A stretch of 64,000 nucleotides of DNA from an uncultured Alphaproteobacteria bacterium (GTDB lineage Bacteria > Pseudomonadota > Alphaproteobacteria > Rhizobiales > Xanthobacteraceae): NCBI GenBank assembly GCA_963841025.1, contig CAWJBG010000001.1, forward strand, positions 300,765 through 364,764. The letters are read 5' to 3'. Each line of letters starts with the position of its first letter. Positions within the stretch are counted from its first letter, which is position 1. Shown here piece by piece: positions 6,454 to 64,000 of this stretch. Below the pieces are notes generated by a model that was given only the letters and a program-made list of their open reading frames with translations, ran no database searches and had not been told where the DNA came from. Both the position numbers and the translations under genes were made by a program.

Positions 6454-6526
6454 GTCCTGTGGAGTAATCCAGTTGCGCGTACACGGCGATCGGGACGCGG
6501 GCCGCCGGTCTCTATATAGTGGAACC

Positions 6527-10340: not shown

Positions 10341-10367
10341 CGGTACGGCGGTAGTGAGGGGCAGGTA

Positions 10368-11462: not shown

Positions 11463-11475
11463 ACGAGAGGGCGTC

Positions 11476-47972: not shown

Positions 47973-48407
47973 GAGCTGTGGCCGCCATGGGTCAAACTCT
48001 GCCGAATTGCGATGTCCGCGTTTAAGTCCGTTCACCGCCGGACGACGGACATGCGACCAATGCGTTGGAACGACAGAAATGTGCCACAAGCCGACGTGAC
48101 TGCAGGCGGCTACTCCGGTTGGCCTCATCACCCGTGCGGGTGAACCAGCAGCGGCTGCATCGGCTCGGTCTGTCCCGCGCTGATCAGAAGGTTGTCGTGA
48201 GCTTCGGCGTCGAAATGGCGATGTAGTTGGCGAGAAGCCCGAGTTTGGCGCTGTGGCCGACGTGGTCGTAATGAGGCCCGCCTGAGTTAACCGCCGGATC
48301 GGCGATCTCGACGCTGTCGCCAGCGCCCGATACGAACTTGAAGTCCGATGTGACGTAGGTTCCGGCAATGGTGATCCCGGCCGCCTCAGTCCGCGGAACG
48401 CGGACTG

Positions 48408-49010
48408 TCAGTGCGATCCGACAAGGGGGAGCGTGAGTTCAGTATCGTGGTGTATTGGAGCGCCGGTAATCGTCCCCCCGCCGTGGCCATTACTCCCCGA
48501 GACGAAATTAGCAGCGATGTGCTGCCTTAGCAGCGGCTCCTGGGGGGGGCCGCTTAAGAACTCGATATTCGCTTTTATGTAACCGCCGCCGGCCGGTATC
48601 GTGCTCCCTACCAAATCAAACCCAAACCCGATCCGACCATCAGTGAGCGGATTGTAAGTTACATCGCTGTTAGAAAACCCGAGTAGATTCGATCTAACGT
48701 TGACACCGTGGTTTGGCATGTTCGGTGGCGTGACCCAACTGACGTCGAAGAAATCATAGAGACCGGCGCCGCCGGTAAGCAATCTCCCGGGTTGAGGCTC
48801 CGATGATGGAAACTCGACCAAAACTTGTTTGTTTCGGATCTCGACGTTCGCGGTGATTGAACCTTCTTGTGTGTAAAATTCGACATTGCGAAAGGTGACT
48901 ACACCTCTCCGCACTGTCGCGGTATCGGTGAACTCCTGAGCAGGAACGCCGCCCTGTTTGCCGTAATAGCTATCAATTGTAACCTCGTGGCCGGCTAAAC
49001 CTTCCGACAT
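48408..49010 (-). CDS. hypothetical protein in AT-richer segment (possibly continues to ~48186 after a frame break)
   Basis: 200-aa ORF from the ATG at 49010, after GAGGGG. Directly after its TGA, another frame stays open for 75 codons (LTVRVPRTEAAGITIAGTYV..GLLANYIAISTPKLTTTF). Confidence 0.45.
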   Translation of the reverse strand: MSEGLAGHEVTIDSYYGKQGGVPAQEFTDTATVRRGVVTFRNVEFYTQEGSITANVEIRNKQVLVEFPSSEPQPGRLLTGGAGLYDFFDVSWVTPPNMPNHGVNVRSNLLGFSNSDVTYNPLTDGRIGFGFDLVGSTIPAGGGYIKANIEFLSGPPQEPLLRQHIAANFVSGSNGHGGGTITGAPIHHDTELTLPLVGSH

Positions 49011-49130
49011 CGATCGACCCCTCTTAAACGCCCCACATTTCAAAAAAGTACCCACAAGACGGGCTAAAGTGAACGTCGATCCGGCGTGATTATCTTACCT
49101 TGGTGAACGAGGGTGAGCGGCCGCCTCAGT

Positions 49131-49188
49131 ATCTCTCGCAGATTAACCCTCAGGGCGACATCTCTGGCAGATTAACCCTCAGGGCGAC
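49131..49188. repeat. 29-bp tandem direct repeat x2 (ATCTCT[C/G]GCAGATTAACCCTCAGGGCGAC)
   Basis: Read directly. There is one mismatch between the units, and the repeat lies in a noncoding-looking AT-richer stretch. Confidence 0.85.
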
Positions 49189-49754
49189 GCCGGCCAAGTT
49201 TCTCGGCAGGGTGTACGCCGGCGACCCAAAGGCTGCGCTAGAGCGAGTAGTCGTTGAATTGCAAATCCGGCCGGAAGATCAAAAGCGCCTCTTCATTACC
49301 TCTTCCCCGGAGCTTTCGGGTCATCGTTTTTACCAATCTAACACTCGGCCAGCGTTTCAAAAGTCTGCAAATTGCTCCACTGGCCATGTCGGTTCTGGGT
49401 CCAAAAACTGACGTCGACCCGCGTCAGTGTCACGTCTGCGCTTTCCCGCAAAGCAGACATCAGCGATCGGAAGTCATAGGTCCGTTAAGTGCCGAAAGGC
49501 GACATAGCGACTGAGCCTGCTTGTGACTCCCCGCACCGCTTACCTCACGATCACGGTGAATTTAGACAAGCTCCGCAGATCGGACCGGGTAGCGTCTTGT
49601 CAGTGCAACAATTCTCGCACAGATTGGACGGTGAAGCCCAAAAAAAGCGGGAACCATACCCGCGCCGGGTCGTTTGTTGGCTGGTCTTGTGAAAATCTTG
49701 CAGGAGTTCGGCGTACGTGAACCGAAAGCCCAAGCGCATCGAACCGGAGCAGAC

Positions 49755-51336
49755 GTGACACATCGGTTCACAACAGCGCGTTCAACTGAAGCGATCCGGT
49801 GGTGGAAGGCTCCAGCGATTGTCTCGCTTGCCGCCGCCGCGCTGACGACCCTGATCCTGGTTACGCCAGCATTGGCCGCGGGGGTTCGGGAGCGCGCCGA
49901 GCACAGCCGCGAGACGACCGCCCGGCGCGATGCGGGTGAACCGGTCATGGCGATCGTGTCGCTCAAGCGGCAGCAGGTGAGCATCTACGACGCCGACGGC
50001 TGGATCATGCGCGCGCCGGTATCGAGCGGCACAACGGGACGCGAGACCCCGGCCGGAAGTCTTCAGCGTCGTCGAGAAGGACAAGGACCACCACTCAAGC
50101 CTCTACGACGATGCCGCGATGCCGAACATGGAGCGCATCACCTGGTCGGGTATTGCACTACACGGCGGGCCGCTGCCCGGATATGCGGCTTCGCACGGCT
50201 GCGTGCGGATGCCCTATGGGTTCGCTGAGACGTTGTTCGACAAGACGCGGATCGGCATGCGCGTCATCATTGCGCCGAACGATGCGGAACCGGTCGCATT
50301 TTCCGACCCGGCGCTGTTGGTCCCGAATGCGAAGGCTCTGGCGGATGCGCCGGGGCGCGCCGAGATGCTTGCCGCCGAAGCGGCCGATGCCGAAAAGGCC
50401 GCCGCCGACGCCAAGAGGGACGCTGCAAAGGCGGTGCGCGAGTCGGCGGCATCGGCATTGCTGGTACGCCAGCTGGAGTGGCAAAAGGGCAACGCCGATG
50501 GCCAGGCAGCGTATGCGGGCAGGGTGCTTGCTCTCGCCAAAACCGACCAGGCCAAGGCGCAGGCCGAGGACACCAAGCAGAAGGTCACCGCCAAGGCCGC
50601 GGATCTTACAGCGAAGCTCGCCGCCGCCCGGGCCGACGCAAAGAGCAAGCTCGATGCGGCCAAGGCGGCACAGGCCGCTGCCATGGCGGCGAAGGCCAAG
50701 ACGGCCGACTCCGCAAAAGCGGCCCGCGAGGCAAAGCTCGCACTCGAACCGGTCTCGATCTTCATCAGTCGCGCGACGCAGAAGCTTTACGTGCGGCGCG
50801 ACACCCATGCCCGGCTGCCGGATGGCGGCGAGATGTTTGACACAACGCTTGTGGTCCCGGTGACGATCCGCAATCCCGGCTCACCCATCGGCACGCATGT
50901 GTTCACGGCCGTGGCGCGGACCGATGCGGAGCTACGCTGGACCGCGGTCACGATCGACAACGGCGACGACGCCAAGGACGCGCTCCACCGCGTGACCATC
51001 CCACAGGACGTGCTCGACCGCGTCGGCCCGACTGCTTTGCCCCTATCCTCGATTGTTATCTCGGACGAACCGCTCAACCGCGAGACCAATTATCGCACCG
51101 AGTTTGTCGTGGTGCTCAATAACCAACCACAAGGCGGCCTTGCGATGCGCGAGCGCCCGGATGATGAGCGTGTCGCTGACCGTAATACATTTCCGGGTGC
51201 GCCTTTAGCGCCGCCGCCCGGCAGCTTTTTCGGCTTCGGTCGTTTGGTCAGTCCGGACTCTCCCGCATCCCAGAACACCGGGCAGAATTACTATCCGCAG
51301 AACCCCGGTCAGAACTCCTATTCGCGGAAATGGTAA
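49755..51336 (+). pseudogene. L,D-transpeptidase (YkuD) family protein with Ala/Lys-rich linker, frame broken near 50055-50060
   Basis: ORF 49674..50228 is sensible until ..SSGTTGRETPAG. The frame of ORF 50119..51336 continues VFSVVEKDKDHHSSLYDDAAMPNMERITWSGIALHGG..SHGCVRM (catalytic H/C). Removing one A of GGAAGTC restores it. The GTG 49755 start is tentative. Confidence 0.7.
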
Positions 51337-51903
51337 GAACGTTGCCGTCGCGTCACTATTTTCTTGACATAATGTCTCCGAATATGTAACAAGGCAATCG
51401 CCTTGCTCACGTGAAGGGCGTCGACCGGTGACGTTACCGACGGCGGAGCAGGGTGCGGCTCCTCCGCGCGGATTCGTAACCCGCGCCGGGGCGGCCTGGG
51501 CATCGTTTCCGCCGGCATTACGACCGGCGCGCGGGGTGCCCCGCTTAAGCGCGATTGACGACGCGGGTAACGCCGGCGCTTTGTTGATCGCGTGAAGCAC
51601 GGCCTGGGCTGAGTCGAGGCGTTCGCTCGCTGCGACAAGCGCCGCCGTGGAGCGCCGGAAGGCGAGCGCGTCCCGCCGGACGCGCTTCCGCGCCGGGCGC
51701 CGGCATGTGGCAACATATGTTGGTGCTGCGCGGACACCAAACGATGCGCCTTTCGGCGCTCCGCCCCTTCGTTTTAAGGGCCGTTGGCTTCGTGGCTTGG
51801 TGAAACGCAACTCGGACGCTCAATGCGCCGCGAGAATAATTTCGTTTGGGCGCACGGCGGAGAGTGAGGGCCCGGCGTCTGTCCGCGCCGCACGAGCTAT
51901 CAG

Positions 51904-52182
51904 CTATTCCACGTCGAGCGGCTCGGTGCCGGTCGGGTTTCCGGCGGCGTCGAGCGTGATCTTCTGCACGCGGGCTTCCGCCTGCCGTAACAGGTCTTCG
52001 CAGCGGCGCTTGAGCGCTTCGCCGCGCTCGTAGATGGTCACGGACTCTTCCAACGGCACGCGGCCATCTTCCAGACGTTTGACGATCAACTCGAGTTCCT
52101 CGATCGCACGCTCGAACGTGAGTTGTCCGACATCGCCGTTGCTTTGGTCGGTTGCGTTGTTCTGATTGTTTGGCGGCGCCAT
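51904..52182 (-). CDS. xseB: exodeoxyribonuclease VII small subunit
   Basis: [32 protein letters not shown]. Confidence 0.9.
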
Positions 52183-52225
52183 TGCCGGCTCCCAGAAAAT
52201 GATCTTGCTATATAGACCGGCCGTC

Positions 52226-53155
52226 TTATCCGTGCATCAAGGCAGTGACGTGCGCAGCCGTCGAGTCCGCCAGCGCTTCCAGATCGTAGCCGCCTTCCAG
52301 CACGGAAACGACGCGGCCGTCGGCGTATTGATCGGCCACGTCCATCAGCTTTTGCGTCGCCCAGGCAAAGTCGGCTTCGACCAGATTGAGATTGGCCAGC
52401 GGGTCACGCATGTGGGCGTCAAAGCCGGCGGAGATGATAACAAGGTCTGGCTCAAATTCGCGCAGCCGTGGCAGGATCCGGTTTTCGAAGGCGGCGCGAA
52501 ACGCTTCACCACCGTCGCCGGGTTTGAGTGGTGCGTTTACGATCGTATTGTACTCGCCGGACTCGTCGACTGCGCCCGTGCCCGGATAAAGCGGCATCTG
52601 ATGGGTCGAGCAGTACATCACCGTTTTATCCGCCCAGAAGATGTCCTGCGACCCGTTGCCGTGATGGACGTCGAAATCGACGATGGCCGCGCGGCTGATA
52701 CCGTGCTGACGCTGCGCATAACGTGCGGCGATGGCGGCGTTGTCGAAAAAGCAAAAGCCCATCGGCCGCGCCGTTTCCGCGTGGTGACCTGGAGGGCGTG
52801 TGGCGACGAAGGCGTTGGCGGCCTTCTTGGTCAAAACCTCGTCGACCGCGTGGATGGCGCCGCCGACCGCGCGCAAAGCCGCCTCAAAGCTGCCGGGAGA
52901 CATCGAAGTGTCGGCATCGATTTGCACCAGGCCATGCGCGGGCGCGGCGTCGCGGATTTGCGTGACGTACTCCATCGGGTGGCACAGCGCGATGACTTCG
53001 AGTGTCGCCCGCGGCGCCTCGACGCGCGCGAGAGACTGAAACTTCTCCACCTCAAGTGCGTGTTCGATCGCGCGCAACCGGTCAGGCCGCTCGGGGTGGC
53101 CGTGCGGGGTGAGGTGATCGAGGCAGGCCGGATGGGTGATCAAGAGCGTGGACAT
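52226..53155 (-). CDS. histone deacetylase-family (acetylpolyamine/acetoin-type) amidohydrolase
   Basis: [16 protein letters not shown] and EGGY. Confidence 0.9.
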
Positions 53156-53179
53156 CGAACTACACTTACACTGTCAATC

Positions 53180-54956
53180 CTATTGAGCCAAAACCGTGTC
53201 GGCGCCGATAACTGCCGCGGCGCCTTCGACCACGGTGCGTTCGAGCGCTCCGGCCTGCACGGCAAAGTTTTCCGCAAAGAAGCGCGCCAGTGCAATGCGC
53301 GGGCCGGCGTCGGCGTTGAGCCGCAATGCGGCAAGCGCCTGTTGCGCCAACAAGCAGCCGCCGGTGGCGACGCCGAACAGCCGAAGGTATGGGGTCGCAC
53401 CGGCAAGCGCTTCGTCGGTGTCTTTATCAAGCTTGGCCAAGAGCCATTGGGTCGCGCGCGCCAAACTTTCAACGGCTTCTTCGAGGCGCACGCCGCTCCA
53501 GCCGAGCGCTGGATCGTTGGTCGCGTTGACCGCTTCGACGATGCGGCGCAATTCGCCAAGAAAAGATTTCGACCGCCGCACCGCCATCGAGCGGCAATTT
53601 GCGGGTGACAAGATCGATCGCCTGAATGCCGTTAGTGCCCTCGTAAATCGGGCCGATCCGGGCGTCGCGTAACAACTGCGCCGCGCCGGTCTCCTCGATG
53701 AAACCCATTCCGCCGTGTACCTGCACGCCGATGGAAGCGACCTCGACGCCGATATCGGTCGAAAATGCCTTTGCCACTGGTGTCAGCAGCGAGGCCCGCG
53801 CATGCGCCGCCCGACGCGCGGCCTGGTCGATCCCGCGCTCACTGTGATCGAGCGCCAGAGCGGTTGCGTAGCAGATCGTGCGCGCTGCCTGCGTCAGCGC
53901 CCGCATGGTCATGAGCATACGCTTGACGTCCGGATGGGCGATGATTGGCGCCATCGAAGTCGCCGGCATGCCGGCGATGCGGCCTTGCCGGCGTTCGCGC
54001 GCGTAGGCGACTGCCATCTGCGTCGCGCGGTCCGCGATGCCGACGCCCTGGAGACCTACGGCGAGCCGCGCGCGGTTCATCATGGTGAACATCGCGGCCA
54101 TGCCGGCATTCTCTGCGCCGACGATGTAGCCGATTGCGCCGCCTTGATCGCCGAAGATCATGGTACAGGTCGGCGAGCCGTGGATGCCGAGTTTGTGCTC
54201 CACCGAATGGGCGCGCACGTCGTTGCGCGCACCAGGCGTGCCGTCGGGATTGAGCAAAAACTTCGGCACCAGGAACAATGAAATGCCGCGGGTGCCGGGC
54301 GGGGCGTCGGGCAGTCGCGCGAGGACGAAATGGATGATGTTATCTGTCAGGTCGTGCTCGCCATAGGTGATGAAGATTTTCTGACCCGTAATGCGGTAGG
54401 TGCCGTCGCCGGTGCGCTCGGCGCGGGTGCGTAATGCGCCGACATCGGAGCCGGCTTGCGGCTCGGTCAGCTGCATCGTTCCGGTCCATTCGCCGGTGAC
54501 GAGCTTTTCAAGATAGGCGCGTTTCAGCTCATCGCTGCCATGGGCGTTGAGCGCGTCGATTGCTCCCATGGTCAATAACGGCCCGAGGCCAAACGACATC
54601 GCGGCCGCGTTCCACATCTCGGTGCACGCGGCGTTGACGACTTGCGGCAATCCCTGTCCGCCCCATTGGGTCGGTGAGGCGAGCCCGTTCCAGCCGGCTT
54701 TGCACCAGGCGTGATAAGCCGCTTTCCAGCCGGGCGCGGTGGTGACGGCACCGTCCTTGAATGTCGTGCCGGATTGGTCGCCGACGCGGTTAAGTGGTGC
54801 GATAATCTCGCCGGCCATGCGGCCCGCTTCGCTGAGCACCGCGTCGACATCGTCCATGGTGAGGTCGCCGAACAAACCCTCCTCGAGCGCAGGCAGAAGC
54901 GTTGTCCCGTATTTGAGCGCAAAGCCCATGTCGGCGAGCGGGGCTTGGTAGGTCAT
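53180..54956 (-). pseudogene. long-form acyl-CoA dehydrogenase (~590 aa), frame broken near 53565-53575
   Basis: ORF 53469..54956 is ACAD-like until ..LVTRKLPLDGGAAV. ORF 53180..53611 continues KSFLGELRRIVEAVNA.. to the C-terminal helical domain. One extra base explains the break. Confidence 0.75.
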
Positions 54957-55172
54957 GGGCGTCTCCCGCGGCAGGTCGGATTTGGCTGTCGGCCGGGCTC
55001 TCAGCCATTATTGTATTTATTATAGAGTAGCCGCGGCGCTGACCATGCCAAAGCGCCGGGGCGGCCGGCCGTCAAGCCGCGAACCGAGGCAAACATTGAT
55101 CGCAGGCGATCACGTCGCTATGGTGCGGTGGCTTATGGCCCGAGGCGGGCCGGCGGCAATCCGATGGTATTT

Positions 55173-55247
55173 TGGGGCGTAGCCAAGCGGTAAGGCAGCG
55201 GATTTTGATTCCGCCATTCGAAGGTTCGATTCCTTCCGCCCCAGCCA
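55173..55247 (+). tRNA. tRNA-Gln (anticodon UUG), CCA encoded
   Basis: Manual cloverleaf: acceptor TGGGGCG/CGCCCCA, D arm GCC-AAGCGGTAA-GGC, anticodon arm GCGGA-TTTTGAT-TCCGC, T arm GAAGG-TTCGATT-CCTTC. Close to E. coli tRNA-Gln from memory. Confidence 0.95.
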
Positions 55248-55248
55248 C
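55200..55248. repeat. attL-like copy of 49-bp direct repeat (3' part of tRNA-Gln)
   Basis: GGATTTTGATTCCGCCATTCGAAGGTTCGATTCCTTCCGCCCCAGCCAC is identical to 60108-60156. Confidence 0.9.
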
Positions 55249-55273
55249 CGGGGAGACGTCCAAAGGGTGGGGG

Positions 55274-55819
55274 ATGGCCATCAGCGATTCAACACATTGG
55301 TTCTTCCAGTACGGTAGCCAATATTACGTTGCTGGCCGCTACGCGGCCTTCGCCGGTTTGACGCCTATCGTCGGCAACATATTGCATCACGCCGTTGAAA
55401 TGTTCCTCAAAGGCGTGCTTGCAAAGACAATGTCGCTGAAGGAGTTGAAAGATAAGCTCGGACACGATCTTCCAAAAATCTGGGCGGTGTTCAAAGTAAA
55501 AGTCAACGATAAGAGCTTATCAGCGTTTGATAAGGTGATCGACACGTTGAACGCGTTCGAAGACATTCGTTATCCCAATAAAATCCTGACCGACGGCGCG
55601 GTTTTGCAAATTGACATCACGAAAGTCGGCGCGGCGATGACATCTGGAAGCGGCTCAGGCGCCTCAATGCCGCAATATTCCCTTTGCCTCGAAGAAATCG
55701 ACGAACTTGTCAAAGCGATCTTCAACGCCGCAGGCCGTGCACCTCCGGCCTATCTGCGTTTTGTGAAAAGCGAAGCGAGAGACTTCGTAAACCGGGAGAA
55801 CAACTGCGTTAGTATCTGA
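55274..55819 (+). CDS. HEPN-domain protein
   Basis: 181 aa. Helical pattern A..AGRYAAFAGL..ILHHAVEMFLKGVL..LGHDL..IW..LNAFEDIRYPN matches the classic HEPN (PF05168-type) layout ending in RYP. Assignment is from memory. Confidence 0.55.
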   Translation: MAISDSTHWFFQYGSQYYVAGRYAAFAGLTPIVGNILHHAVEMFLKGVLAKTMSLKELKDKLGHDLPKIWAVFKVKVNDKSLSAFDKVIDTLNAFEDIRYPNKILTDGAVLQIDITKVGAAMTSGSGSGASMPQYSLCLEEIDELVKAIFNAAGRAPPAYLRFVKSEARDFVNRENNCVSI

Positions 55820-55919
55820 GTTTGGGCACGTAGACCGGTGGAGTCGCCCGCGCCAATTGGTGGGTGGGCGCTTGATCTGTCATTTGCTCGGCCGTCGTTC
55901 CTCGATCGAGAGTGAGCCA

Positions 55920-58417
55920 ATGCCGCTTGCTTTGACCATATTTGGCGTATCGACCGCCGGCAGTCAGCCCGTGTTCTGCTACGGGTTTCTACGGCCCGTT
56001 CGGGGCGCGGGCGATTACCAGCCGCCAAATCTTCCCAGGGGCCTCACGGCAAACCGCATCACGCGGACGCCTCTGTCTGGATTTCAGGAAGTTGAAGTAG
56101 TCGCGTGGGATTGCATTTTCCCGACCGGGCTAGAAGAGACTGTGCTGACTCAGTTTTCAGCAGGAAAGCTGACTATACCCGATGAGTGTCCTATAGAACC
56201 GGGCCGTACAGTCGAAGGCGACCTTTGCCCGTTATCATTTATCTTCGACTACCCCACTTGGGTTCGAACCTCTGGCACCGGAATTCTTCAACTCCAAAGC
56301 CTCATTGTCCGAGATGGTATTGATCCAGTCTTTCAAGCCCTGACGCCGGCTGTTGGAGCGGGCGATACTCCTGCCGCCTTGCTGAAGCTAATCGAGGTGC
56401 TGGCCAAACAATCCGGTTTAGAAGAAATCTTTTTGCTCAGGCGTCCAATTGGATTGATTGATCATTTTTGGCGGGAGGACCCTAACTGTTCAACCTCGGC
56501 GCCGCTGTTGAATATCGTACCTGACAAACCCGATTTCCGAACCAAAGTACCCATGCTCAAATGTTATGTGCGCCGTTACGCGTGTAGCGAAGAGCGAGCG
56601 TTTCGATTGCACGTGACAGTTAAGAACTTTGATGAAGTGCTCAGGGATTATCTTGTCGACTTCCCCGCCGGTGCGCCAGAAGTCGCCGTTGATACAAGCG
56701 TCCACATCACCGATGTGTCAGTCGAGGCCTTTAACGAAGACGGAACGATCGCACAAAAGATCATCGCTGTGTTTACTCAAGCAATGGATTTCGGAATCAA
56801 AGCTCTAGGCCGCGCCGACCTTCTTCCAGCAGTTTTCAGTAGTACGCCTGAAACTCAAGACCTGGAAAAACGCGCACGGTTGAGCACCGTTGCGTTCAAG
56901 GGCCCTGCTGCGGGAATGCGGTCCGGCGCGTTCGATGTGCTCCGGCAAAATAGGGAGCGTGTGGATGCCCTACTTGGACCTCAGAAACCATCTGCCGAAT
57001 GTTTTTGGTTCGGCAGAAGCCCTGAAAGTCAAATCGATGTGATCCGCTGGATCAAGACGAAGCTTGAGCAGCCGAATGTCCGCAATGCATATCTAATCGA
57101 TCCCTTTCTCGGAACTGACGCGTTGCGCAGAGTGATTTGCGTCAAGGCAACGAAAACATTGATCTGACACTTCTAGTGTCTCCCGGTCGCGTCAACCCGG
57201 ACGCCGAGACGGTTGATATGCCAGCAACAGAAAATCATATCCAAAAGCTCATTGGCGTAGCGAATGAATGGTCTGAGCAACTGTGTGGCAACATATCAAT
57301 TATTCATATCAAGCGAGGGGAGGATGCGCGTCAGGCGTTTCATGATCGTTATCTGTGCCTGGTCGACCAGGACGGGGTGCCGACGGTATATTTGCTGTCC
57401 AATAGTCTCAGCAAAGCAGCCGGGGATTGGCCCTTTGCCATCAGTGAATTGAGCCGCGTAACTGCTTGGCAGGCTTACCGCTACATCGAAGGCCTTATCG
57501 CAGGAAAGGATGGCGAAAGAGAACTTCAGCCTGTTGAGATTTGGAGGCGTAAGCAATCGACAGCCCCTATTGAAGTAAAGACCGAACAGCCAGATCAAAG
57601 CACGGACCGGCCCCAGTGGGTTCCGTGGGCTGAGTCCTTTCTGAGAAGACTGCAGACGGTCGCCTACCGTAATACCGGGAACCGCGACGAGATGGACGCC
57701 ATAGTTGATCAATGCCTTGTTGAGTGGCCGACTGGCGTCGATGCGACGGTGCTCGCGGATAACTTATTTCGGATAATTAGCTACAGAGCGCAATACGTTG
57801 CGCGCGGCGCAGCCCGCTTCTTATCAGGAAGCGATGCGCAGCAGGCCGTTGGTAGGCGACTGGAAGACTTGCAGCTGGATCATTTTTTTGGCGAGCTTGA
57901 AAAGGGCGATAGAACTCACGGCGTTACGTGGCAATTTCTGGATGGCAGAGACGAGCTGATTGCTTTCCTGGGTCGTGCAATTTCTCGGCTCAGCACTCCA
58001 ACTTATTTCGTTAGAGATCGAATTAACCCGTTAGTCCATTCGTCCATGCAAACGCTGGAGTTTCAACGAGGCGAAACCGATGCCGCGTTTAACGCAGTTC
58101 AAATCGCAACTTGCCTCATAAGCCTTGGACTAGAAGTCGCTGTGGTATCCGACGTCGAATTGAGATTTCGACAAGGTGTCGCTAGTGACTATGTACATTG
58201 GGCCGGACGACTTGTGCGTTCTGACGCAGCGCGTATTCGGTTGGCGTTCGGAGCACACGCGTCCGACTTGTGGATGAATGATTTCACGTTTCTCGCGCGC
58301 CAGATATTGCAGGCCGGGTCGATATTGGGGGAGCCTGTGCAAACCTCGATTTTCCGCGTTCTCAGCGATTCCTTGGTGCCATTGGAATTTAAGACACTGC
58401 TCGGTCAGGCCGGGTAA
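55920..58417 (+). pseudogene. large (~830 aa) uncharacterised protein with central IDPF...HDRY PLD/MIT_C-like module, frame broken at T-run ~57134-57136
   Basis: ORF 55857..57167 (likely ATG at 55920) ends ..NAYLIDPFLGTDALRRVI. ORF 57137..58417 continues LRQGNENIDLTLLVSPG..IIHIKRGEDARQAFHDRYLCLVDQDGVPTVYLLSNSLSKAAG. The second frame opens only at about 57119. Adding one T (GTGATTTTGCG) joins them. Confidence 0.55.
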
Positions 58418-58442
58418 TGAAACGACTGCGCGTCGCCGTTTC

Positions 58443-58470
58443 GGAGGTTCGAATCCTCCCCCCAACCAGC
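58443..58470 (+). other. tRNA 3'-end-like remnant (T arm plus acceptor strand, no CCA)
   Basis: GGAGG-TTCGAAT-CCTCC followed by CCCCAAC. No matching 5' half upstream. Lies between the two cargo modules of the islet. Confidence 0.4.
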
Positions 58471-58541
58471 GGTGAGTGCCCGCTGACCTCTAAGTAGTTG
58501 ATATTCAACCTATTGTATTACCAAAGATTTCCATTGAATAA

Positions 58542-58578
58542 TGTCGGGTTTTTGCTATATTAAGTGTCGGGTTTTTGC
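58542..58578. promoter_or_regulatory. two direct 14-bp repeats TGTCGGGTTTTTGC spaced 23 bp, just upstream of abiEi-like gene (candidate operator)
   Basis: Read directly at 58542-58555 and 58565-58578. The second copy ends 12 nt before the ATG at 58591 and abuts the AAGGAGAGG RBS. Confidence 0.45.
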
Positions 58579-58590
58579 AAGGAGAGGCCC

Positions 58591-59007
58591 ATGCCCCGCC
58601 GAAAGACATTGCGGCAAAGAATCGAGGAGCGGATTTCCCGCCGGTCCGGAGACTCGGTATTCCTCACGCGCGAATTCACTAATCTCGGCGGCGAGGACCA
58701 AGTGCTGCGCGCCCTGCGCACCCTTGTGCAGGACGGGCATCTGCTGCGCCTCGGCTACGGAGTTTATGGGCGCGCCGTCCCTTCGAGCTTATCAGGACGT
58801 CCGATGCTCTACAGCCCCAACGGCTTCATCGGCGCTGCGCGCCAGGCTCTCGACAAGCTCGGGGTCGAATGGGAGCCGACCGAAGCCGAGCGCGCTTACA
58901 ACGAAGGCCGCTCGACGCAAGTGCCGGTCAATCCGGTCGTGCGCGTAAGGGGGCGGTTCAACCGCCACCTCAGTTACGGCAATTCGGAGCTTGTCGTTGA
59001 GCGATAG
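58591..59007 (+). CDS. AbiEi-family (type IV toxin-antitoxin) antitoxin-like wHTH protein
   Basis: N-terminal pattern RQRIEERISRRSGDSVFLTREF....VLRALRTLVQDGHLLRLGYGVYGRA is typical of AbiEi/DUF6088 antitoxins. Overlaps the downstream toxin gene. Confidence 0.6.
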   Translation: MPRRKTLRQRIEERISRRSGDSVFLTREFTNLGGEDQVLRALRTLVQDGHLLRLGYGVYGRAVPSSLSGRPMLYSPNGFIGAARQALDKLGVEWEPTEAERAYNEGRSTQVPVNPVVRVRGRFNRHLSYGNSELVVER

Positions 59008-59926
59008 GCCGACGCTCCAGCAGCTGCTCGAAATACAGCAGCACTTCGAATTGCCGAGTACCGCGCTCGTCGAAAAGGACTGGCACGTCATCAAGGCGCT
59101 CGCCGCGATCATGGCAGTCGACACTAAGCCATTCCGGCTGGTCTTCGGCGGCGGCACCGCGCTCGGGCGCGCCTATGGACTCATCAAGCGCATGTCCGAG
59201 GACATCGATCTGAGGATCGTCGGCGTTGAGCGGCCGAGCCGAGGTCAGTTGCGCGTGCTGCGGCAAAAAATTATGAAGGCTTTGCTGGACGCCGGCTTTA
59301 AGTTCGATCCCGAGAACCCCGAGCATCGCAGGACCATGTATGAGGGGCGCTACACCGTCTATCACCTTCCTTACGAAGCCGTCGCAGAAGGCACCGGAGC
59401 GCTTCGCCCGGAAATTAAGATCGAGACTTCCGCGTTTCCGTTAAGGCGCGATTCCGTCCAACGCCCGGTCTCGTCCTTCATCGCCGAGGGTAACGGCAAG
59501 CCGCCCGAGATTCCTTCGATCGACTGCACCTCAATTCTTGAAACCACAGCGGACAAGCTGGTTGGCTTGACCCGCCGTGCCGGCGCGGAACTCGCGGGCT
59601 TGCGCAAAGAGCGCGATACGACATTAGTTCGGCACATTCATGATCTTCATGCCGTTCGCAGCCAATACGACCCCGCAGAGGTCGCCAAGCTCGCTCGCGA
59701 AATCATGCCCGACGAAGCGGCGCAACGAGCCGACGATTTTCCTGCCTACAAGGCGGACCCACTGGGCGAAACGCTGAAAGCGATCGAAGGCATCGCGGCG
59801 AGCGCCGACTACAAGAGGGATTACGAAACCTTCCGCCGCGACATGGTCTATGGCGACGGCGTTGATTTCGATACTGCGATCAAGACGCTCAAGGAGCTAG
59901 GAGAGCAATTGCGCCGAGCGGCGTGA
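58991..59926 (+). CDS. nucleotidyltransferase AbiEii/AbiGii toxin family protein
   Basis: DUF1814-type motifs (VFGGGTALGRAY, SEDIDLRI, EIKIETS). The start codon is uncertain (TTG 58991 or 58997). Confidence 0.8.
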   Translation: MSLSDRPTLQQLLEIQQHFELPSTALVEKDWHVIKALAAIMAVDTKPFRLVFGGGTALGRAYGLIKRMSEDIDLRIVGVERPSRGQLRVLRQKIMKALLDAGFKFDPENPEHRRTMYEGRYTVYHLPYEAVAEGTGALRPEIKIETSAFPLRRDSVQRPVSSFIAEGNGKPPEIPSIDCTSILETTADKLVGLTRRAGAELAGLRKERDTTLVRHIHDLHAVRSQYDPAEVAKLAREIMPDEAAQRADDFPAYKADPLGETLKAIEGIAASADYKRDYETFRRDMVYGDGVDFDTAIKTLKELGEQLRRAA

Positions 59927-60107
59927 CTTTACCCAATTTGGGGTCTTTTTACCCAAATCGGGGCCGAACATGAGTTAGCACAAGAGACGTGCGGCGGATT
60001 TCTGATTCCACCGTGCGCCGCTAAGCCGTTATTTCGCAATACAAAAAATTACCGCGACAGAGATGCGACAACGTGGCAAAAAACTGAATTGGATCAATGT
60101 GGTTTGT

Positions 60108-60156
60108 GGGATTTTGATTCCGCCATTCGAAGGTTCGATTCCTTCCGCCCCAGCCA
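60108..60156. repeat. attR-like copy of 49-bp direct repeat (orphan tRNA-Gln 3' fragment)
   Basis: Identical to 55200-55248. No tRNA 5' half precedes it. Confidence 0.9.
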
Positions 60157-60355
60157 CTGAAAAATAATTGCTGCGCTGGTTTTTAACGAGCGCGGCACGC
60201 TGATCTATCACTCACAGGGATAATTCCGCGGCGACTTTGTTCAAGCCGCGAGACGTCTGAAATGACGCAACGTCGCAAAAGCTGCTTGGTTGAAGATAAT
60301 CACCAAACGGAGGAGCGAAACCTGAGCTTTTTGTTTGGCGGGCGGCTGCCGCCGA

Positions 60356-60640
60356 TCACTGAACGGTTACCTTCGAGTATCCTCGCGCGGCGGGAAGGTG
60401 ATCAACTAAAGCCGGCGTCTTGCGCTCGGCCTCGTCTCCGATCTGCAATGAAAACAACCTTTTGCCGTCGGCGTTCCGCACCTCAATCGTCCAACCATGC
60501 CAATCGTGAGCCAGTTTGTTCGACAACAGCTGTCCGAGCGTTTCTGCAAACTCGACGGCGCCTTGAGGGCTGAGGAAATCGTCCCCTTTGTAGTCGAGAA
60601 GCGATTGATCCTTCGTGGTATAATCGAAGAAGTAGCGCAT
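60356..60640 (-). CDS. small hypothetical protein (DUF6894-like)
   Basis: MRYFFDYTTKDQSLLDYKGDDFLSPQGAVEFAETLGQLL..GWTIEVRNADGKRLFSL resembles the MRYFFH..D..G...D..A......A........W.IEV.D..G family. Assignment is from memory. Confidence 0.5.
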   Translation of the reverse strand: MRYFFDYTTKDQSLLDYKGDDFLSPQGAVEFAETLGQLLSNKLAHDWHGWTIEVRNADGKRLFSLQIGDEAERKTPALVDHLPAARGYSKVTVQ

Positions 60641-60992
60641 GAAACCGCACCAGCCGATCGTTTGTGACCAGCGCGATTGTAATAAGATTTTGCTATGGTG
60701 CTGTTAAATCGACCAATAAACATTTAGGCCAATTTCAAAGCGCTTAGGCTTAGAGGCAGTATCCGACGTTGCCGGTTGTTCGCAGAGCGTCGGAAGCATC
60801 GGCCTTCTTAAGGATTAAGCAAACGAGCTAAGGCCGGGCGCACGCCGTCGCGGCTTCGGGGCCGACGTCGTTCCACTCGCGCGTATGGTAAAAACTCGGT
60901 GTGCTGCCTTGCCCTTCGGGAACCGGCTGGGCAAGACTGCACTTCCAATTGCCCGACCGTCCACTCGACCATTGAGAAAGCTGAAACCGGAT

Positions 60993-62193
60993 ATGCCGAT
61001 CGATCGCCTTCGGGTTGCCGTGGTTGGAGGAGGCATCGGTGGCCTCGCGGCCGCTAATGCGCTCGTTCGACGAGGCGCCGACGTCACAGTATTGGAACAG
61101 GCGGCGGTGCTGGGCGAGGTCGGCGCCGGCATTATGATCTATCCGAATAGTCTGCGGCAGCTGGAACGCATGGGTCTTCGCGAAGCGATGGCGCGGGTGG
61201 GCGCGAAGGTCGGCGACGGGCTCGGAATACTGCAGGATGGACGGCACGACCGTCGGCAAAATCCTCACAACCGACTCGAACGGCTGGAACGGGGTCTATG
61301 GGACGCATCGGGCCGACTTGCTGCGTGTGCTCGCCGACGCGATTCCGCAAGCCGCCATACGCACAGGTCACCGCTGTATCGCATTTGAGCAAGATGAGGC
61401 TGGCGCACACCTGAAGTTCGCGAATGGCGCGACATTGGACGTCGACGTCGTGATCGCGGCCGATGGCATCCAGTCGACTTTGCAGAAATACGTCACCGAG
61501 CCCTCGCTGCCGGAATATTCAGGCTCACGCGCCTATCGAGGCTTGATCGCGACCGACAAGCTTCCCTCGTGGCGAAAGGAGGCTCACCAGGTCTGGATGG
61601 GCGACGGCAAACATTTCATGGTGTTTCCAGTTCGCAGCGGCCGGCTTCTCAATTATGTCGGCTTCGTGCCGACCAAGAGCGAGACGATCAAGTCATGGTC
61701 GGCGATTGGCGATCGCGACGAGCTTGCGGCGTCGTTCGCAGGATGGGATCCGCGCGTGGTCGGTCTGATTGAAAAAGTGGAGAGCTGCTTCTGGTGGGGG
61801 TTGTACGATCGGAAACCTCTGGCGTCGTGGACCAACGGGCGCCTCGCACTTCTTGGCGACGCCGCCCATGCGATGCTGCCGCATGTCGGTCAGGGCGCCA
61901 ATCAGGCCGTCGAGGATGGCGTTGCTCTTGCGGTTTTCCTTGAGGGGCGGAGTTCTGCTGAGGTCGCCGATGCATTGCGGCGCTACGAGGCTTTCCGTCG
62001 CGAGCGCACCGGTATCGTGCAGGCCGAAGCCCGGCGGAACGGTCTTCGTTACGATTCGCAGTACGAAAATCTGGAGCAGCGCGATCGGGAAGTCGCGAAT
62101 GCCGCGGTGTTCCGCAAATGGCTTTACGACTATGACGTCGAGCAAGCCGCGGTGGCTTATATGGCGGAAAGCCGGGCGTCCGTGCCCGCCTGA
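60993..62193 (+). pseudogene. FAD-dependent aromatic-ring monooxygenase (salicylate hydroxylase-like), frame broken near 61221-61225
   Basis: ORF 60885..61388 gives RVAVVGGGIGGLAAANAL..GAGIMIYPNS. ORF 61237..62193, with its open frame upstream, continues (S)EYCRMDGTTVGKI..HRADLL..GDAAHAMLPHVGQGANQAVEDG. One extra base explains the break. Confidence 0.75.
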
Positions 62194-62251
62194 ACGGGAC
62201 GGCGAAGTTCTGCCCGGGCGGACGACGCTGCGCTTCCGACCTGGTGACGGT

Positions 62252-63409
62252 TCAGTTCCAGATACGCCGGCTGGCGATCCGCGCGCCTTCAACCATTGCG
62301 GCCAGCTTCGCCCAGACGATTGACGGATGCATCTCGTGCGATGCGGCGAAAGATGCAAAGCCGCAGTCGGCGCCAGCGATCACGTTTTCGGCGCCGACGA
62401 CGTTGGCGAAACGGACTAGCCGCTCGGCGACCAATTCGGGATGCTCGACAAGAACGGTGGTGTGGGAAATCACGCCGGGAATCAGGATCTTGCCGGGCGG
62501 CAACTTGGCATGTTCCCAGATCGCCCATTCGTGTTCGTGGCGGGGATTGGCGAATTCAAACGAGTAGGCGCCGGCGCGGACGCGCAGCATGATGTCGACA
62601 AAATCCTTCAGCTCCATGTCGGTCGCGCGCGGCCCCATGTTGATGCTGTAACAGGTGTGAAACCGCACTTTCTCCTCGGGAATATTACGCAGCGCGTGGT
62701 TCAGCACGTCGACCCTGACATGCGCCCAGTTGCGGGTCTGCTCGATGCTGTCGGTGGTCATGGTGTAGCGCGTTGCCAGCGCCGGATCGTCGATCTGGAG
62801 CAAAAATCCGGCTGCCACAATCACTTCATATTCTTCGCGCATCGCTTCTGCGATCGCCTCGAGATAATCCTCCTCGGTCTTGTAGTATTCGTTGCGCTGC
62901 CAGCGTTCGACGTTGGCAGGTGAAATCGACGGCACGAACGCCTCGACTGCACCGGCACGATCGGCCGCGGCTTTGAACACTTTCAGTTGCTGTTCCAGCA
63001 GCGCGCGGCCCGAATAGCGCAGGCGATCGACGCAGATCATCTGTCGCGCCCGGCCCGGAGCGCCGCTCGCGTGCGCCTCGACCTCGGCATAGAATTCCGG
63101 AAAGGCTTGGCCCTCGCGGGTGTTTTTCCAGAGATTGCCACGCTGCTCGCCGGCGATAATGCCGCTCAAGCGGTCGTGCACATAGGTGACAAAACTGACC
63201 TTGCCCTGCTCGCCGTCGTTGATCACGTCGATGCCGAGGCTCGCTTGCTTGGCTACGACCTCATCGACAGCACGCGCGACGCGCGCGGCAAATGCGGCGG
63301 CGTCAATCTCGCGGCCTTCTTCCCGATCGATCATCATTGCCAACAGATCGTCGGGCCGCGGCAGGCTGCCGACATGGGTGGTCAGAAATCTATTGGTACT
63401 GCGCTGCAC
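62252..63409 (-). CDS. cobalamin-independent methionine synthase (MetE C-terminal domain)-like family protein
   Basis: LTTHVGSLPRP, FLLQIDDPAL and CGF. GTG start at 63409 or 63418 after AGGGAG. The longer tracked ORF overlaps hisG. Confidence 0.75.
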   Translation of the reverse strand: MQRSTNRFLTTHVGSLPRPDDLLAMMIDREEGREIDAAAFAARVARAVDEVVAKQASLGIDVINDGEQGKVSFVTYVHDRLSGIIAGEQRGNLWKNTREGQAFPEFYAEVEAHASGAPGRARQMICVDRLRYSGRALLEQQLKVFKAAADRAGAVEAFVPSISPANVERWQRNEYYKTEEDYLEAIAEAMREEYEVIVAAGFLLQIDDPALATRYTMTTDSIEQTRNWAHVRVDVLNHALRNIPEEKVRFHTCYSINMGPRATDMELKDFVDIMLRVRAGAYSFEFANPRHEHEWAIWEHAKLPPGKILIPGVISHTTVLVEHPELVAERLVRFANVVGAENVIAGADCGFASFAASHEMHPSIVWAKLAAMVEGARIASRRIWN

Positions 63410-63521
63410 TCTTTGCACTCCCTGACAATTGCGATGGGCCGCCCAAAGCGTCGACGACGGGATGCACCGCGTCGCGCGGGCTCGACATTTTAGCAACCGA
63501 TGATGACTTCGCGAGCTTAGT

Positions 63522-64000
63522 CTAGTTGGCGGCCGCAGGGCTGTCGCGGTCAAGCTCCGCGGTTAGGCGGGCGTAGAGCGGATTGTCGCGCGAATAAACG
63601 TATTCGAGCGCGGCAACGGAGACCGCCTCGGCGCCACGCTCGCGCAAGAAGCTCGCCAGCGCATGCACGTTCCGGGGCGGGCAGTGCAACGTCATCATGC
63701 CGGAAGAGGTTGGGCCGCCGAACGGCGCGGCGACGCCGAATTTTTCGCCCGCGGTTTTAAGCAGCGCCTCGTTCAGACCGGCAAAACGGGTGCGCACTTC
63801 GCGATAAGCGTGCGCGCGCTTTTGCGCAGCGATCCGGTCGAGCAGAAGGCGTGCGGTTTCGCGATGCGCGGTCTCCCATTGCGCCGACCGCGCCGCGACC
63901 AGGTTTGCCTGCGAGCGCAGAATGATGCCGTCGTCGATCACCTTGAGGCCGTTGGCGGCAAGCGTCGAGCCGGTGGTGGTGATGTCGACGATCAGTTCGG
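63522..64000 (-). CDS. hisG: ATP phosphoribosyltransferase, C-terminal part (gene runs off window end)
   Basis: The open frame continues to position 64000 (..[30 protein letters not shown]..), followed by the regulatory C-terminal domain. Confidence 0.75.

What the first reader, a model, noticed from the sequence alone, without database searches (positions are those of the whole stretch)
55200..60156. tRNA-Gln-targeted, integrase-less islet bounded by a perfect 49-bp direct repeat
The last 48 nt of tRNA-Gln(UUG) plus one flanking base (55200-55248) recur exactly at 60108-60156, without a tRNA 5' half. This is the classical attL/attR signature of site-specific integration into a tRNA 3' end.

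The enclosed ~4.86 kb is visibly AT-richer than the flanks. It encodes only defence-type or orphan genes (HEPN, a large unknown protein, AbiEi/AbiEii). I found no integrase, excisionase or transposase ORF on either strand, so the element appears immobilised or relies on a trans-acting integrase.
Basis: seen in the sequence. Interest (0 to 1): 0.7.

Follow-up and report, generated by a model that had tools for sequence, protein, structure and literature searches.

The report
Integrase-less defence islet in tRNA-Gln
A 4.86-kb block of foreign DNA carrying anti-phage genes sits in the end of a glutamine tRNA gene, bounded by two perfect 49-bp repeats and precisely absent from a sister strain; it has no integration enzyme of its own, which makes it an ordinary, well-documented example of a stranded genomic islet.

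Summary
tRNA-Gln(UUG) lies at 55173-55247. Its last 48 nt plus one base (55200-55248) recur exactly at 60109-60157, with no tRNA 5' half.

A 521-kb contig from a close relative (L110, 96.5-98.3% identical flanks) has the same tRNA followed directly by the right flank. It carries one copy of the 49-mer, and exactly 55249-60108 is missing. The repeats are therefore true attL/attR boundaries of a discrete insertion.

The islet has GC 0.549 against 0.616 elsewhere (z = -4.1), but its composition is a mosaic. It encodes:
- a weakly HEPN-like protein;
- an 832-aa protein with a VPA1262 ('Juno') N-domain and a PLD-nuclease-like fold, read through one frameshift;
- an AbiEi/AbiEii pair with host-like GC.

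No recombinase was found in the islet or in the 64-kb window.

In relatives, an unannotated, probably divergent tyrosine recombinase abuts the tRNA-Gln 3' end. One relative (L016) holds a 2.1-kb islet with a frameshifted copy of this gene and a 50-nt repeat of the same extent.

The best reading is a CIME-like, non-autonomous remnant of a tRNA-Gln-specific integrative element. It is a new member of a known kind, of modest interest.

The parts
55173..55247 (+). Intact tRNA-Gln(UUG); its 3' part forms the attL core
   Evidence: ARAGORN. Rfam RF00005 66.2 bits. The same gene with the same T-stem is present in the empty-site strain L110.
55200..55248 (+). attL core: 49-bp direct repeat, copy 1 (tRNA positions 28-75 plus one base)
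   Evidence: It is present as a single copy in L110.
55274..55819 (+). orf1: 181-aa, weakly HEPN-like protein that starts 26 nt after the att core
   Evidence: Belongs to a family of about 180-aa proteins. AlphaFold2 pLDDT 91. The most probable Foldseek hits are HEPN structures (probability 0.7-0.77, E > 1). Pfam HEPN is sub-threshold: 13.6 bits here, and 17 of 39 family members hit at E <= 1.
55920..57167 (+). Juno-like (VPA1262 N-domain) gene, 5' part, up to the frameshift in the T-run at 57136-57138
   Evidence: Homologs P0003, P0004 and P0005 span both ORFs. NF040700 scores 61.6 bits on this part alone. The start codon is taken from the P0001/P0002 gene calls.
57137..58417 (+). Juno-like gene, 3' part: invariant QAFHDR...SNS motif of a PLD-like domain plus a helical C-terminal domain
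   Evidence: The read-through 832-aa product scores 158.9 bits on NF040700 (cutoff 80). The fold of homolog P0003 matches NucT, PLD, Tdp1 and Zucchini.
58534..58578 (+). Promoter-like site overlapping two 14-nt direct repeats (TGTCGGGTTTTTGC, 23 nt apart) just upstream of abiEi; candidate autoregulatory operator
   Evidence: the repeat finder family D14. Promoter scan gives TTGAAT-16-TATATT with an extended TG. The function is inferred.
58591..59007 (+). abiEi antitoxin/regulator (138 aa)
   Evidence: PADLOC AbiEi 8e-46. Pfam DUF6088. The gene call is the same in L099.
58991..59926 (+). abiEii nucleotidyltransferase toxin; its start overlaps the abiEi stop
   Evidence: Pfam AbiEii 4.9e-28. PADLOC 5.5e-81. 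About 70% nucleotide identity to abiE pairs on Bradyrhizobium plasmids.
59927..60108 (+). 182-nt AT-rich non-coding stretch next to attR; presumed relic of the attP arm. It holds two 16-nt repeats (59928-59943 and 59948-59963) and an imperfect copy of the anticodon arm (about 59990-60010).
   Evidence: The role is inferred. The repeats could equally be abiEii terminator hairpins.
60109..60157 (+). attR core: 49-bp direct repeat, copy 2 (displaced tRNA 3' fragment, no 5' half)
   Evidence: Not recognised as a tRNA.

Best explanation
The segment 55249-60108 is a non-autonomous genomic islet.

**Shown by the sequence and the empty site**
- It is a discrete unit bounded by two copies of the tRNA-Gln 3' end.
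- It is absent from a sister strain.
- It encodes no recombinase, excisionase or transfer genes.
- It carries defence-type cargo.

**Inferred origin**
- A circular element carrying a 49-bp copy of the tRNA-Gln 3' end (attP) recombined with the chromosomal tRNA-Gln gene (attB).
- The enzyme was a tyrosine integrase. The crossover was probably in the anticodon loop, because the identity block runs from the anticodon stem to the CCA end.
- This regenerated an intact tRNA at attL and displaced the original 3' fragment to attR.
- The element then lost its integrase, or arrived without one. It now corresponds to a cis-mobilizable element (CIME): att sites kept, integration and transfer genes gone.
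- It can move again only if a cognate integrase is supplied in trans or by an incoming element that accretes at the same site. Otherwise it can spread passively by homologous recombination of its flanks.

**Cargo**
- Three defence-type modules: a HEPN-like protein, a Juno-related protein with a PLD-nuclease-like domain, and the AbiE toxin-antitoxin abortive-infection pair.
- The first two probably depend on read-through from the tRNA promoter, since only 25 nt separate the att core from orf1.
For: **Boundaries**
- Perfect 49-bp repeat at the tRNA 3' end.
- Empty site in L110: L110rc 3952-9802 matches window 49396-55248 (98.3%), and L110rc 9754-13644 matches window 60109-64000 (96.5%).
- The two alignments overlap by exactly the single 49-mer.

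**Foreign origin**
- GC 0.549 against 0.616, z = -4.1.
- The low-GC DUF6894 flank to the right of attR is present in the empty strain, so it lies outside the islet.

**No mobility genes**
-.
- The only non-coding gaps are 100, 173 and 182 nt.

**Same site used and decaying in relatives**
- L062 has a 462-aa gene ending 24 nt from the tRNA-Gln 3' end.
- L016 has a frameshifted copy of that gene inside a 2.1-kb islet closed by a 50-nt, 96% repeat of tRNA positions 26-75.
- L009 and L026 keep fragments of the gene next to the tRNA.
- The family keeps R...HxK...RHGG...H...Y residues. Two of four members hit Pfam Phage_integrase at up to 7e-5. Plasmid homologs sit next to relaxase and MobC genes.

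**Literature**
- CIME definition: PMC5704250.
- Anticodon-loop-to-CCA att class: bioRxiv 10.1101/2020.11.02.365908.

**Cargo**
- AbiE.
- VPA1262 N-domain. Juno is reported as an anti-phage defence (bioRxiv 10.64898/2026.08.01.741415).
- PLD-like fold.
- The abiE module resembles those on rhizobial conjugative plasmids.
Against: - No relic of any integrase is detectable in the islet (best tblastn E = 0.09, elsewhere in the window). No larger integrase-bearing parent element was found. Loss by deletion is therefore inferred, not shown.
- The islet's arm sequences share nothing with those of the L016 islet. A link to the L062-type recombinase rests only on the shared target and repeat extent.
- The empty site in L110 could be ancestral, or the product of precise excision, or of RecA recombination between the repeats. 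The direction of the event is not established.
- Nothing here shows a circular form or current mobility.
- The defence function of every cargo gene is by homology only.
- The Juno-like gene is interrupted in this assembly.
Confidence: 0.8

Rival explanations
1. The islet is an active non-autonomous 'mini-island'. It never had an integrase. It is excised and integrated in trans by a tRNA-Gln-specific recombinase encoded elsewhere in the genome or on an incoming ICE or plasmid (for example the unannotated L062-type family), in the way a MITE depends on a transposase.
For: - Both att cores are perfect, and a 182-nt AT-rich arm with repeats is kept.
- The islet is present in some closely related strains and precisely absent in another, at 96-98% flank identity.
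- A candidate cognate recombinase family exists at the same tRNA in relatives and on conjugative plasmids.
Against: - No such recombinase lies in the 64-kb window.
- Only 25 nt separate the attL core from orf1, leaving little room for a P' arm.
- There is no arm similarity to the L016 islet.
- There is no evidence of a circular form.
- Perfect 49-bp repeats are expected anyway at this divergence, and one copy is under selection as a tRNA.
Confidence: 0.2
2. The islet is what remained after tandem accretion. An integrase-bearing element integrated next to it at the same tRNA-Gln att site. That element later excised alone using the middle att site, leaving this cargo block behind.
For: - Accretion and differential excision are described for CIME-ICE and IME tandems (PMC5704250).
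- An imperfect copy of the anticodon arm lies about 100 nt inside attR and could be a fossil of an older att site.
- The composition is a mosaic of two modules.
Against: - No tandem arrangement was seen in any recovered contig.
- The inner anticodon-arm copy is short and of marginal significance (it contains an indel and is not found by ungapped search).
- This reading is not distinguishable from simple deletion with the data in hand.
Confidence: 0.2
3. The repeat is a remnant of a tandem tRNA-Gln gene duplication, or it is an assembly artefact, and not an insertion boundary.
For: None beyond the bare existence of a repeated tRNA segment.
Against: - There is no 5' half at the second copy.
- A clean empty site exists in a 521-kb contig of a sister strain.
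- An independent Logan contig reproduces the islet interior at 99.9% identity.
- The interior has foreign composition.
Confidence: 0.02

Closest known systems
CIME (cis-mobilizable element), as defined for decayed ICEs/IMEs in streptococci and catalogued in ICEberg
   Same: - Flanked by attL and attR derived from site-specific integration into the 3' end of a conserved gene.
- No integrase, excisionase or transfer genes; cargo only.
- Expected to move only with help from a related element.
   Different: - Found in an uncultured alphaproteobacterium (relatives are Xanthobacteraceae-like MAGs), at tRNA-Gln.
- No adjacent ICE or IME, no relic of the parent element, and no experimental mobilisation.
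- Derivation from an ICE is inferred only from the plasmid-like abiE module and from what relatives show at the same site.
tDNA-integrated genomic islands as mapped by Islander (tyrosine-integrase islands in tRNA/tmRNA genes)
   Same: - Intact tDNA regenerated at one end and a displaced 3' tDNA fragment at the other.
- The identity block runs from the anticodon stem to CCA (anticodon-loop sublocation class).
- An empty site exists in a relative, and the composition is foreign.
   Different: - Lacks the island-encoded integrase that defines these islands and that is used to find them, so integrase-based finders would miss it.
- At 4.86 kb it is very small.
AbiE (AbiEi/AbiEii) type IV toxin-antitoxin abortive-infection system
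   Same: - Overlapping bicistronic pair: an AbiEi/DUF6088 regulator-antitoxin and an AbiEii nucleotidyltransferase.
- Strong profile matches.
- Repeats in the promoter region, consistent with autoregulation.
   Different: Here the upstream repeats are direct, not the inverted repeats I recall for the S. agalactiae system. No phenotype was tested.
Juno / VPA1262 family anti-phage defence (bioRxiv 10.64898/2026.08.01.741415)
   Same: - Shares the VPA1262 N-terminal domain (158.9 bits, cutoff 80).
- Single large protein located in a mobile or variable region among other defence genes.
   Different: - Fails the full-length family model (129.9 bits against a cutoff of 325).
- The C-terminal half is a different helical domain.
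- The reading frame is interrupted in this assembly.
- Found in an alphaproteobacterium rather than in Vibrio or Pantoea.
IMEX elements (integrative elements that exploit host XerCD at dif)
   Same: They work in the same way in one respect: integrated elements with no recombinase of their own, relying on one supplied in trans.
   Different: The target here is a tRNA gene and not dif. No XerCD-type site is involved. This is an analogy only.

Membership tests
tDNA-integrated genomic island (Islander-type) | Intact tRNA/tmRNA gene at one end | tested here: met
   tRNA-Gln(UUG) at 55173-55247.
tDNA-integrated genomic island (Islander-type) | Displaced 3' tDNA fragment as a direct repeat at the other end | tested here: met
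   49/49 identity between 55200-55248 and 60109-60157.
tDNA-integrated genomic island (Islander-type) | Island-encoded tyrosine integrase | tested here: not met
   No recombinase ORF or relic was found.
tDNA-integrated genomic island (Islander-type) | Unoccupied site in a related genome | tested here: met
   L110 has a single 49-mer, and 55249-60108 is precisely absent.
CIME (cis-mobilizable element) | attL and attR retained | tested here: met
   Both cores are perfect.
CIME (cis-mobilizable element) | Integration and transfer genes absent | tested here: met
CIME (cis-mobilizable element) | Derived from an ICE or IME by decay | tested here: inconclusive
   The islet holds no relic and no parent element was found. 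A decaying integrase-bearing islet at the same tRNA in L016, and fragments in L009 and L026, show the process in relatives.
CIME (cis-mobilizable element) | Excision or transfer when a cognate element is supplied | not testable with these tools
   Needs an experiment or read-level junction data.
AbiE type IV TA / Abi system | AbiEi-type antitoxin/regulator | tested here: met
   PADLOC AbiEi 8.2e-46; Pfam DUF6088 at 28.8 bits (cutoff 25).
AbiE type IV TA / Abi system | AbiEii nucleotidyltransferase toxin encoded immediately downstream, overlapping | tested here: met
   Pfam PF08843 at 99.1 bits (cutoff 22.5); PADLOC 5.5e-81. The start at 58991 overlaps the abiEi stop at 59007.
AbiE type IV TA / Abi system | Toxicity neutralised by AbiEi; abortive infection | not testable with these tools
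   Needs an experiment.
VPA1262 / Juno | VPA1262 N-terminal domain (NF040700, cutoff 80 bits) | tested here: met
   158.9 bits for the 832-aa product read through the frameshift. The two halves score 61.6 and 78.1 bits separately.
VPA1262 / Juno | Full-length family model (NF040699, cutoff 325 bits) | tested here: not met
   129.9 bits; only profile positions 249-556 of 1026 are matched.
VPA1262 / Juno | Uninterrupted reading frame | tested here: inconclusive
   One base is missing in the T-run at 57136-57138 relative to homologs, and the Logan contig L099 shares this. However, this assembly and L110 differ by 13 single-base indels in 9.7 kb, some inside conserved genes, so a consensus error is possible.
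HEPN domain (orf1) | Pfam PF05168 at or above the gathering score (22 bits) | tested here: not met
   13.6 bits, E = 0.076. 17 of 39 family members hit at E <= 1, the best at 7e-4.
HEPN domain (orf1) | HEPN four-helix fold | tested here: inconclusive
   The model has pLDDT 91. HEPN structures 2hsb, 1ufb and 4nqf are the most probable Foldseek hits (probability 0.69-0.77, target TM 0.56-0.62), but all have E > 1.
HEPN domain (orf1) | Rx4-6H catalytic motif | tested here: not met
   R99-Y-P is invariant, but no His follows within 4-6 residues (IRYPNKILTDG). The other invariant residues are R22, H38, E42, K46, H64 and E96.

The most novel reading that the evidence does not exclude
The islet is a working non-autonomous integrative element, a 'mini-island' that spreads defence genes. 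It would be excised and re-integrated in trans by a previously unrecognised, highly divergent tyrosine recombinase family. That family is annotated only as 'hypothetical protein'. It sits at the tRNA-Gln 3' end in related genomes and next to relaxase genes on Bradyrhizobium conjugative plasmids.
Probability: 0.15. Interest if true: 0.55.

Novelty: new member of a known kind. Interest (0 to 1): 0.3.

Why it matters
**As an example**
- It is a clean, fully delimited case, with occupied and empty alleles in sister strains, of defence genes persisting in a tRNA hotspot after the mobility genes are gone.
- Integrase-based island finders would miss islets of this kind.

**Side products that may be more useful than the islet itself**
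- A candidate tRNA-Gln-specific recombinase family that current profile libraries do not recognise.
- A fold-level assignment of the VPA1262/Juno N-domain to the PLD nuclease/phosphodiesterase superfamily, with an invariant QAFHDR...SNS motif. The preprint that describes Juno gives no domain or mechanism, so this suggests a testable effector chemistry for that system.

None of this changes current understanding of genomic islands.

Tried and rejected
**Searches for an empty site or the source genome**
- An exact-protein look-up of the HDAC-like flank gene found nothing on record, and neither did the look-up of P0093, the database protein identical to orf1.
- The genome-contig scan with the flanking acyl-CoA dehydrogenase gave 80 loci with conserved HDAC-ACAD-tRNA-Gln synteny. 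None had the window's right flank, so none was an empty site.
- A 33-mer scan of metagenome contigs gave 17 full tRNA-Gln genes in unrelated contexts and no attR-like fragment.
- The empty site was finally found through the DUF6894 flank protein.

**Leads that turned out irrelevant**
- The one viral-contig hit (L081) is a phage with RtcB and its own tRNA-Gln, not an att site.
- orf1 is not a conserved partner of the Juno-like gene. Its homologs sit alone among TA genes.
- A search for shared arm sequences between this islet and the L016 islet found none.

**Searches for a parent element**
- The AbiEi exact look-up returned only L099 and a 1.2-kb contig.
- blastn of the islet against plasmids matched only abiE, at about 70% identity. 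Against phages there was no match.

**Attempts to classify the L062-type protein**
- Pfam at E <= 0.01, PHROGs, and single-sequence and profile searches of PDB sequences were all negative.
- Only its plasmid homologs reach Pfam Phage_integrase weakly.

**Other negatives**
- Profiles of orf1 and of the Juno-like family against PDB sequences gave nothing useful.
- I first read the Juno-like frameshift as pseudogenisation. I withdrew that after seeing single-base indels in conserved genes between the two long assemblies.
Full report
**Observation**

The window holds one tRNA gene, tRNA-Gln(UUG), at 55173-55247 on the + strand (Rfam 66.2 bits). A perfect 49-nt direct repeat lies at 55200-55248 and 60109-60157. 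No shuffle of the window gave a match even with three mismatches allowed.

The repeat spans tRNA positions 28-75 (part of the anticodon stem, the anticodon loop, the variable region, the T arm, the 3' acceptor strand and CCA) plus one flanking C. The bases left of the second copy are unrelated to the tRNA 5' half. Neither ARAGORN nor Rfam calls a tRNA there.

**The empty site**

The closest genomes in the GTDB representative set share only 73-84% amino-acid identity in the flanking acyl-CoA dehydrogenase. They keep HDAC-ACAD-tRNA-Gln synteny but have different DNA downstream of the tRNA. A metagenome scan for the tRNA 3' end found only full tRNAs in other contexts.

An exact-protein look-up with the DUF6894 gene just right of the second repeat then returned a 521,507-nt ENA contig, L110. 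In L110:

- DUF6894 and the acyl-CoA dehydrogenase are only about 490 nt apart, and the tRNA-Gln lies between them.
- blastn aligns L110rc 3952-9802 to window 49396-55248 (98.3%) and L110rc 9754-13644 to window 60109-64000 (96.5%).
- The two alignments overlap by exactly the 49-mer, which is present once and is identical.

So 55249-60108 (4,860 bp) plus one repeat copy is precisely absent from a sister strain. This confirms the attL/attR reading and excludes a tandem tRNA duplication. It also shows that the low-GC DUF6894 stretch right of attR belongs to the chromosome, not to the islet. An independent Logan contig (L099, run ERR11523671) reproduces the islet interior at 99.9% identity.

**Composition**

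- The interior has GC 0.549, against 0.616 for the rest of the window. This is below all 504 same-size windows elsewhere (minimum 0.580; z = -4.1).
- The composition is a mosaic. orf1 and the large gene have GC3 of 0.54-0.61. abiEi and abiEii have GC3 of 0.72-0.75, like the flanking housekeeping genes.
- At the DNA level only the abiE module finds relatives: about 70% identity on Bradyrhizobium and other rhizobial plasmids, mostly conjugative ones. There is no phage match.

**Gene content**

*orf1 (55274-55819, 181 aa).*
- It starts 26 nt after the att core and belongs to a family of about 180-aa proteins.
- The AlphaFold2 model is confident (pLDDT 91).
- Its most probable Foldseek hits are HEPN proteins (2hsb, 1ufb, 4nqf), but with E > 1.
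- Pfam HEPN is sub-threshold: 13.6 bits here, and 17 of 39 relatives hit at E <= 1.
- The family has an invariant R-Y-P but no Rx4-6H motif.
- 'HEPN-like' is therefore plausible but not established.
- Its homologs occur singly among toxin-antitoxin genes, not with integrases or with the large gene.

*The large gene (ORFs 55857-57167 and 57137-58417).*
- The two ORFs are one gene in homologs such as P0003, P0004 and P0005.
- The window lacks one T in the run at 57136-57138.
- Read through from the ATG at 55920, the 832-aa product scores 158.9 bits on NCBIfam VPA1262_N_dom (cutoff 80). It scores only 129.9 bits on the full VPA1262 family model (cutoff 325).
- The VPA1262 family was reported in August 2026 as the anti-phage system 'Juno', without a domain assignment or mechanism.
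- A model of the intact homolog P0003 (pLDDT 77) matches PLD-superfamily structures: NucT at E = 1.3e-4 and target TM 0.6, plus phospholipase D, Tdp1, Zucchini and PPK1.
- The family has an invariant QAFHDR...SNS motif.
- The gene is therefore Juno-related, not a full family member. It probably encodes a PLD-type nuclease or phosphodiesterase domain followed by a different helical C-terminal domain.

*The frameshift.* I do not treat it as proof of a pseudogene. L099 shares it and has a second one. However, the window and L110 differ by 13 single-base indels in 9.7 kb, including inside the conserved ACAD and HDAC genes. That pattern points to consensus errors in long-read assemblies.

*AbiE.*
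- abiEi (58591-59007) and abiEii (58991-59926) match strongly (Pfam 4.9e-28; PADLOC 8e-46 and 5.5e-81).
- A promoter-like site at 58534-58561 overlaps two 14-nt direct repeats just upstream. This fits an autoregulated operon, by inference.

**No mobility genes**

- All minus-strand ORFs in the islet are short and lie inside the plus-strand genes. The non-coding gaps are 100, 173 and 182 nt.
- Four profile libraries give no recombinase, excisionase or transposase hit.
- phmmer with tyrosine recombinase, serine recombinase, IS110, IS91 and rve seeds found nothing in any six-frame ORF of 80 aa or more across the whole window.

**What relatives show at the same tRNA**

- In L062, the closest relative in the GTDB set, a 462-aa gene ends 24 nt from the tRNA-Gln 3' end.
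- In L016 a frameshifted copy of this gene lies between the tRNA and a 50-nt, 96% repeat of tRNA positions 26-75. Together these enclose a 2.1-kb islet.
- L009 and L026 keep short fragments of the gene beside the tRNA.
- The protein has no Pfam hit at E <= 0.01, no PHROGs hit and no PDB sequence hit. Its plasmid homologs are annotated 'hypothetical protein'.
- Those plasmid homologs sit next to relaxase and MobC genes on conjugative Bradyrhizobium plasmids.
- Two of four aligned members reach Pfam Phage_integrase at up to 7e-5.
- The alignment keeps R242, H269-x-K271, R354-H-G-G, H377 and Y386 invariant, which is the pattern of tyrosine recombinases.
- I infer a divergent tyrosine recombinase that targets the tRNA-Gln anticodon-loop-to-CCA block, and whose elements decay in place.
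- The window holds no trace of it, and the islet's arm sequences are unrelated to those of L016. The link to this particular family is therefore circumstantial.

**Mechanism**

- An identity block that runs from the anticodon stem to the CCA end is the pattern described for integrases that cross over in the anticodon loop.
- The most likely history is site-specific integration of a circular element, followed by loss of the integrase.
- The alternatives are integration in trans without ever having an integrase, or being left behind after tandem accretion and excision of a partner element.
- What remains fits the published definition of a CIME: att sites kept, integration and transfer genes gone.
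- The polymorphism between sister strains shows a recent gain or a recent precise loss. The data do not tell which.

**Verdict**

The element is an ordinary kind of object: a decayed or non-autonomous tRNA-borne islet with defence cargo. I rate it a new member of a known kind, with modest interest.

Two by-products deserve follow-up:
- the unrecognised recombinase family at tRNA-Gln;
- the PLD-like fold of the Juno N-domain.

Noticed in passing
L062 6491-7876; L016 5027-7275; L009 9624-9776; L026 9356-9493; L107 2983-4191; L108 3100-4251; L109 3019-4191: An unannotated 380-460-aa protein family abuts the tRNA-Gln 3' end in relatives. It is frameshifted inside a repeat-bounded 2.1-kb islet in L016. 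On Bradyrhizobium conjugative plasmids it sits next to relaxase and MobC genes. It keeps R...HxK...RHGG...H...Y residues but escapes Pfam, PHROGs and PDB sequence searches. It is probably a divergent tyrosine recombinase.
   Followed up: partly
window 57137-58417 and homologs P0003-P0090: The VPA1262/Juno N-terminal domain has a PLD-superfamily fold (NucT, PLD, Tdp1 and Zucchini hits) and an invariant QAFHDR...SNS motif. The Juno preprint reports no domain or mechanism.
   Followed up: partly
window 49396-55248 and 60109-64000 compared with L110: There are 13 single-base indels in 9.7 kb between two long assemblies of sister strains. One splits the acyl-CoA dehydrogenase in the window (53566) and one splits the HDAC-like gene in L110 (52563). 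These are probably long-read consensus errors, so frameshifts in this window should not be read as pseudogenes.
   Followed up: yes
window 48382-49396 compared with L110rc 266-3952: This is a second strain-variable spot. About 1 kb of low-GC DNA in the window (a 215-aa ORF at 48408-49055) is replaced in L110 by about 3.7 kb holding a 1199-aa ORF with no Pfam hit.
   Followed up: no
window about 59990-60010: An imperfect copy of the tRNA anticodon arm (GCGGATTTCTGATTCCACC against GCGGATTTTGATTCCGCC) lies about 100 nt inside attR. It is one base shorter in L099. It could be a fossil of an older att site or could be chance.
   Followed up: partly
window 59928-59963: Two 16-nt direct repeats (TTTACCCAATTTGGGG and TTTACCCAAATCGGGG), 20 nt apart, lie directly after the abiEii stop. 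Each is partly palindromic and is followed by T-rich sequence. They may be terminator hairpins or arm-type binding sites.
   Followed up: no
L081 7334-7408 (IMG/VR contig): A phage contig encodes its own tRNA-Gln, whose 3' 48 nt equal the tRNA part of the att core. Next to it are an RtcB-like ligase gene and a small ORF that I read from its translation as peptidyl-tRNA hydrolase-like. This is a phage tRNA, not an integration site.
   Followed up: partly
L106 9000-12333: An orf1 homolog lies in a 3-kb low-GC patch (0.54-0.56 against 0.63) about 1.6 kb downstream of a tRNA-Lys 3' end, with no detectable repeat. This may be another fully decayed tRNA-borne islet.
   Followed up: partly
window 55173-55247 compared with L001-L045: The T-stem of this lineage's tRNA-Gln is GAAGG/CCTTC, whereas relatives have GGAGG/CCTCC or CCAGG/CCTGG. 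The change is compensatory. It is native rather than brought by the islet, because the empty-site strain has it too.
   Followed up: yes
L100 7369-9718; L101 10001-12408; L102 9541-12067: The closest homologs of the Juno-like gene are also broken into several frames in their contigs, and they lie among IS and recombinase genes. This could be assembly error or recurrent inactivation of a toxic gene; it is unresolved.
   Followed up: no
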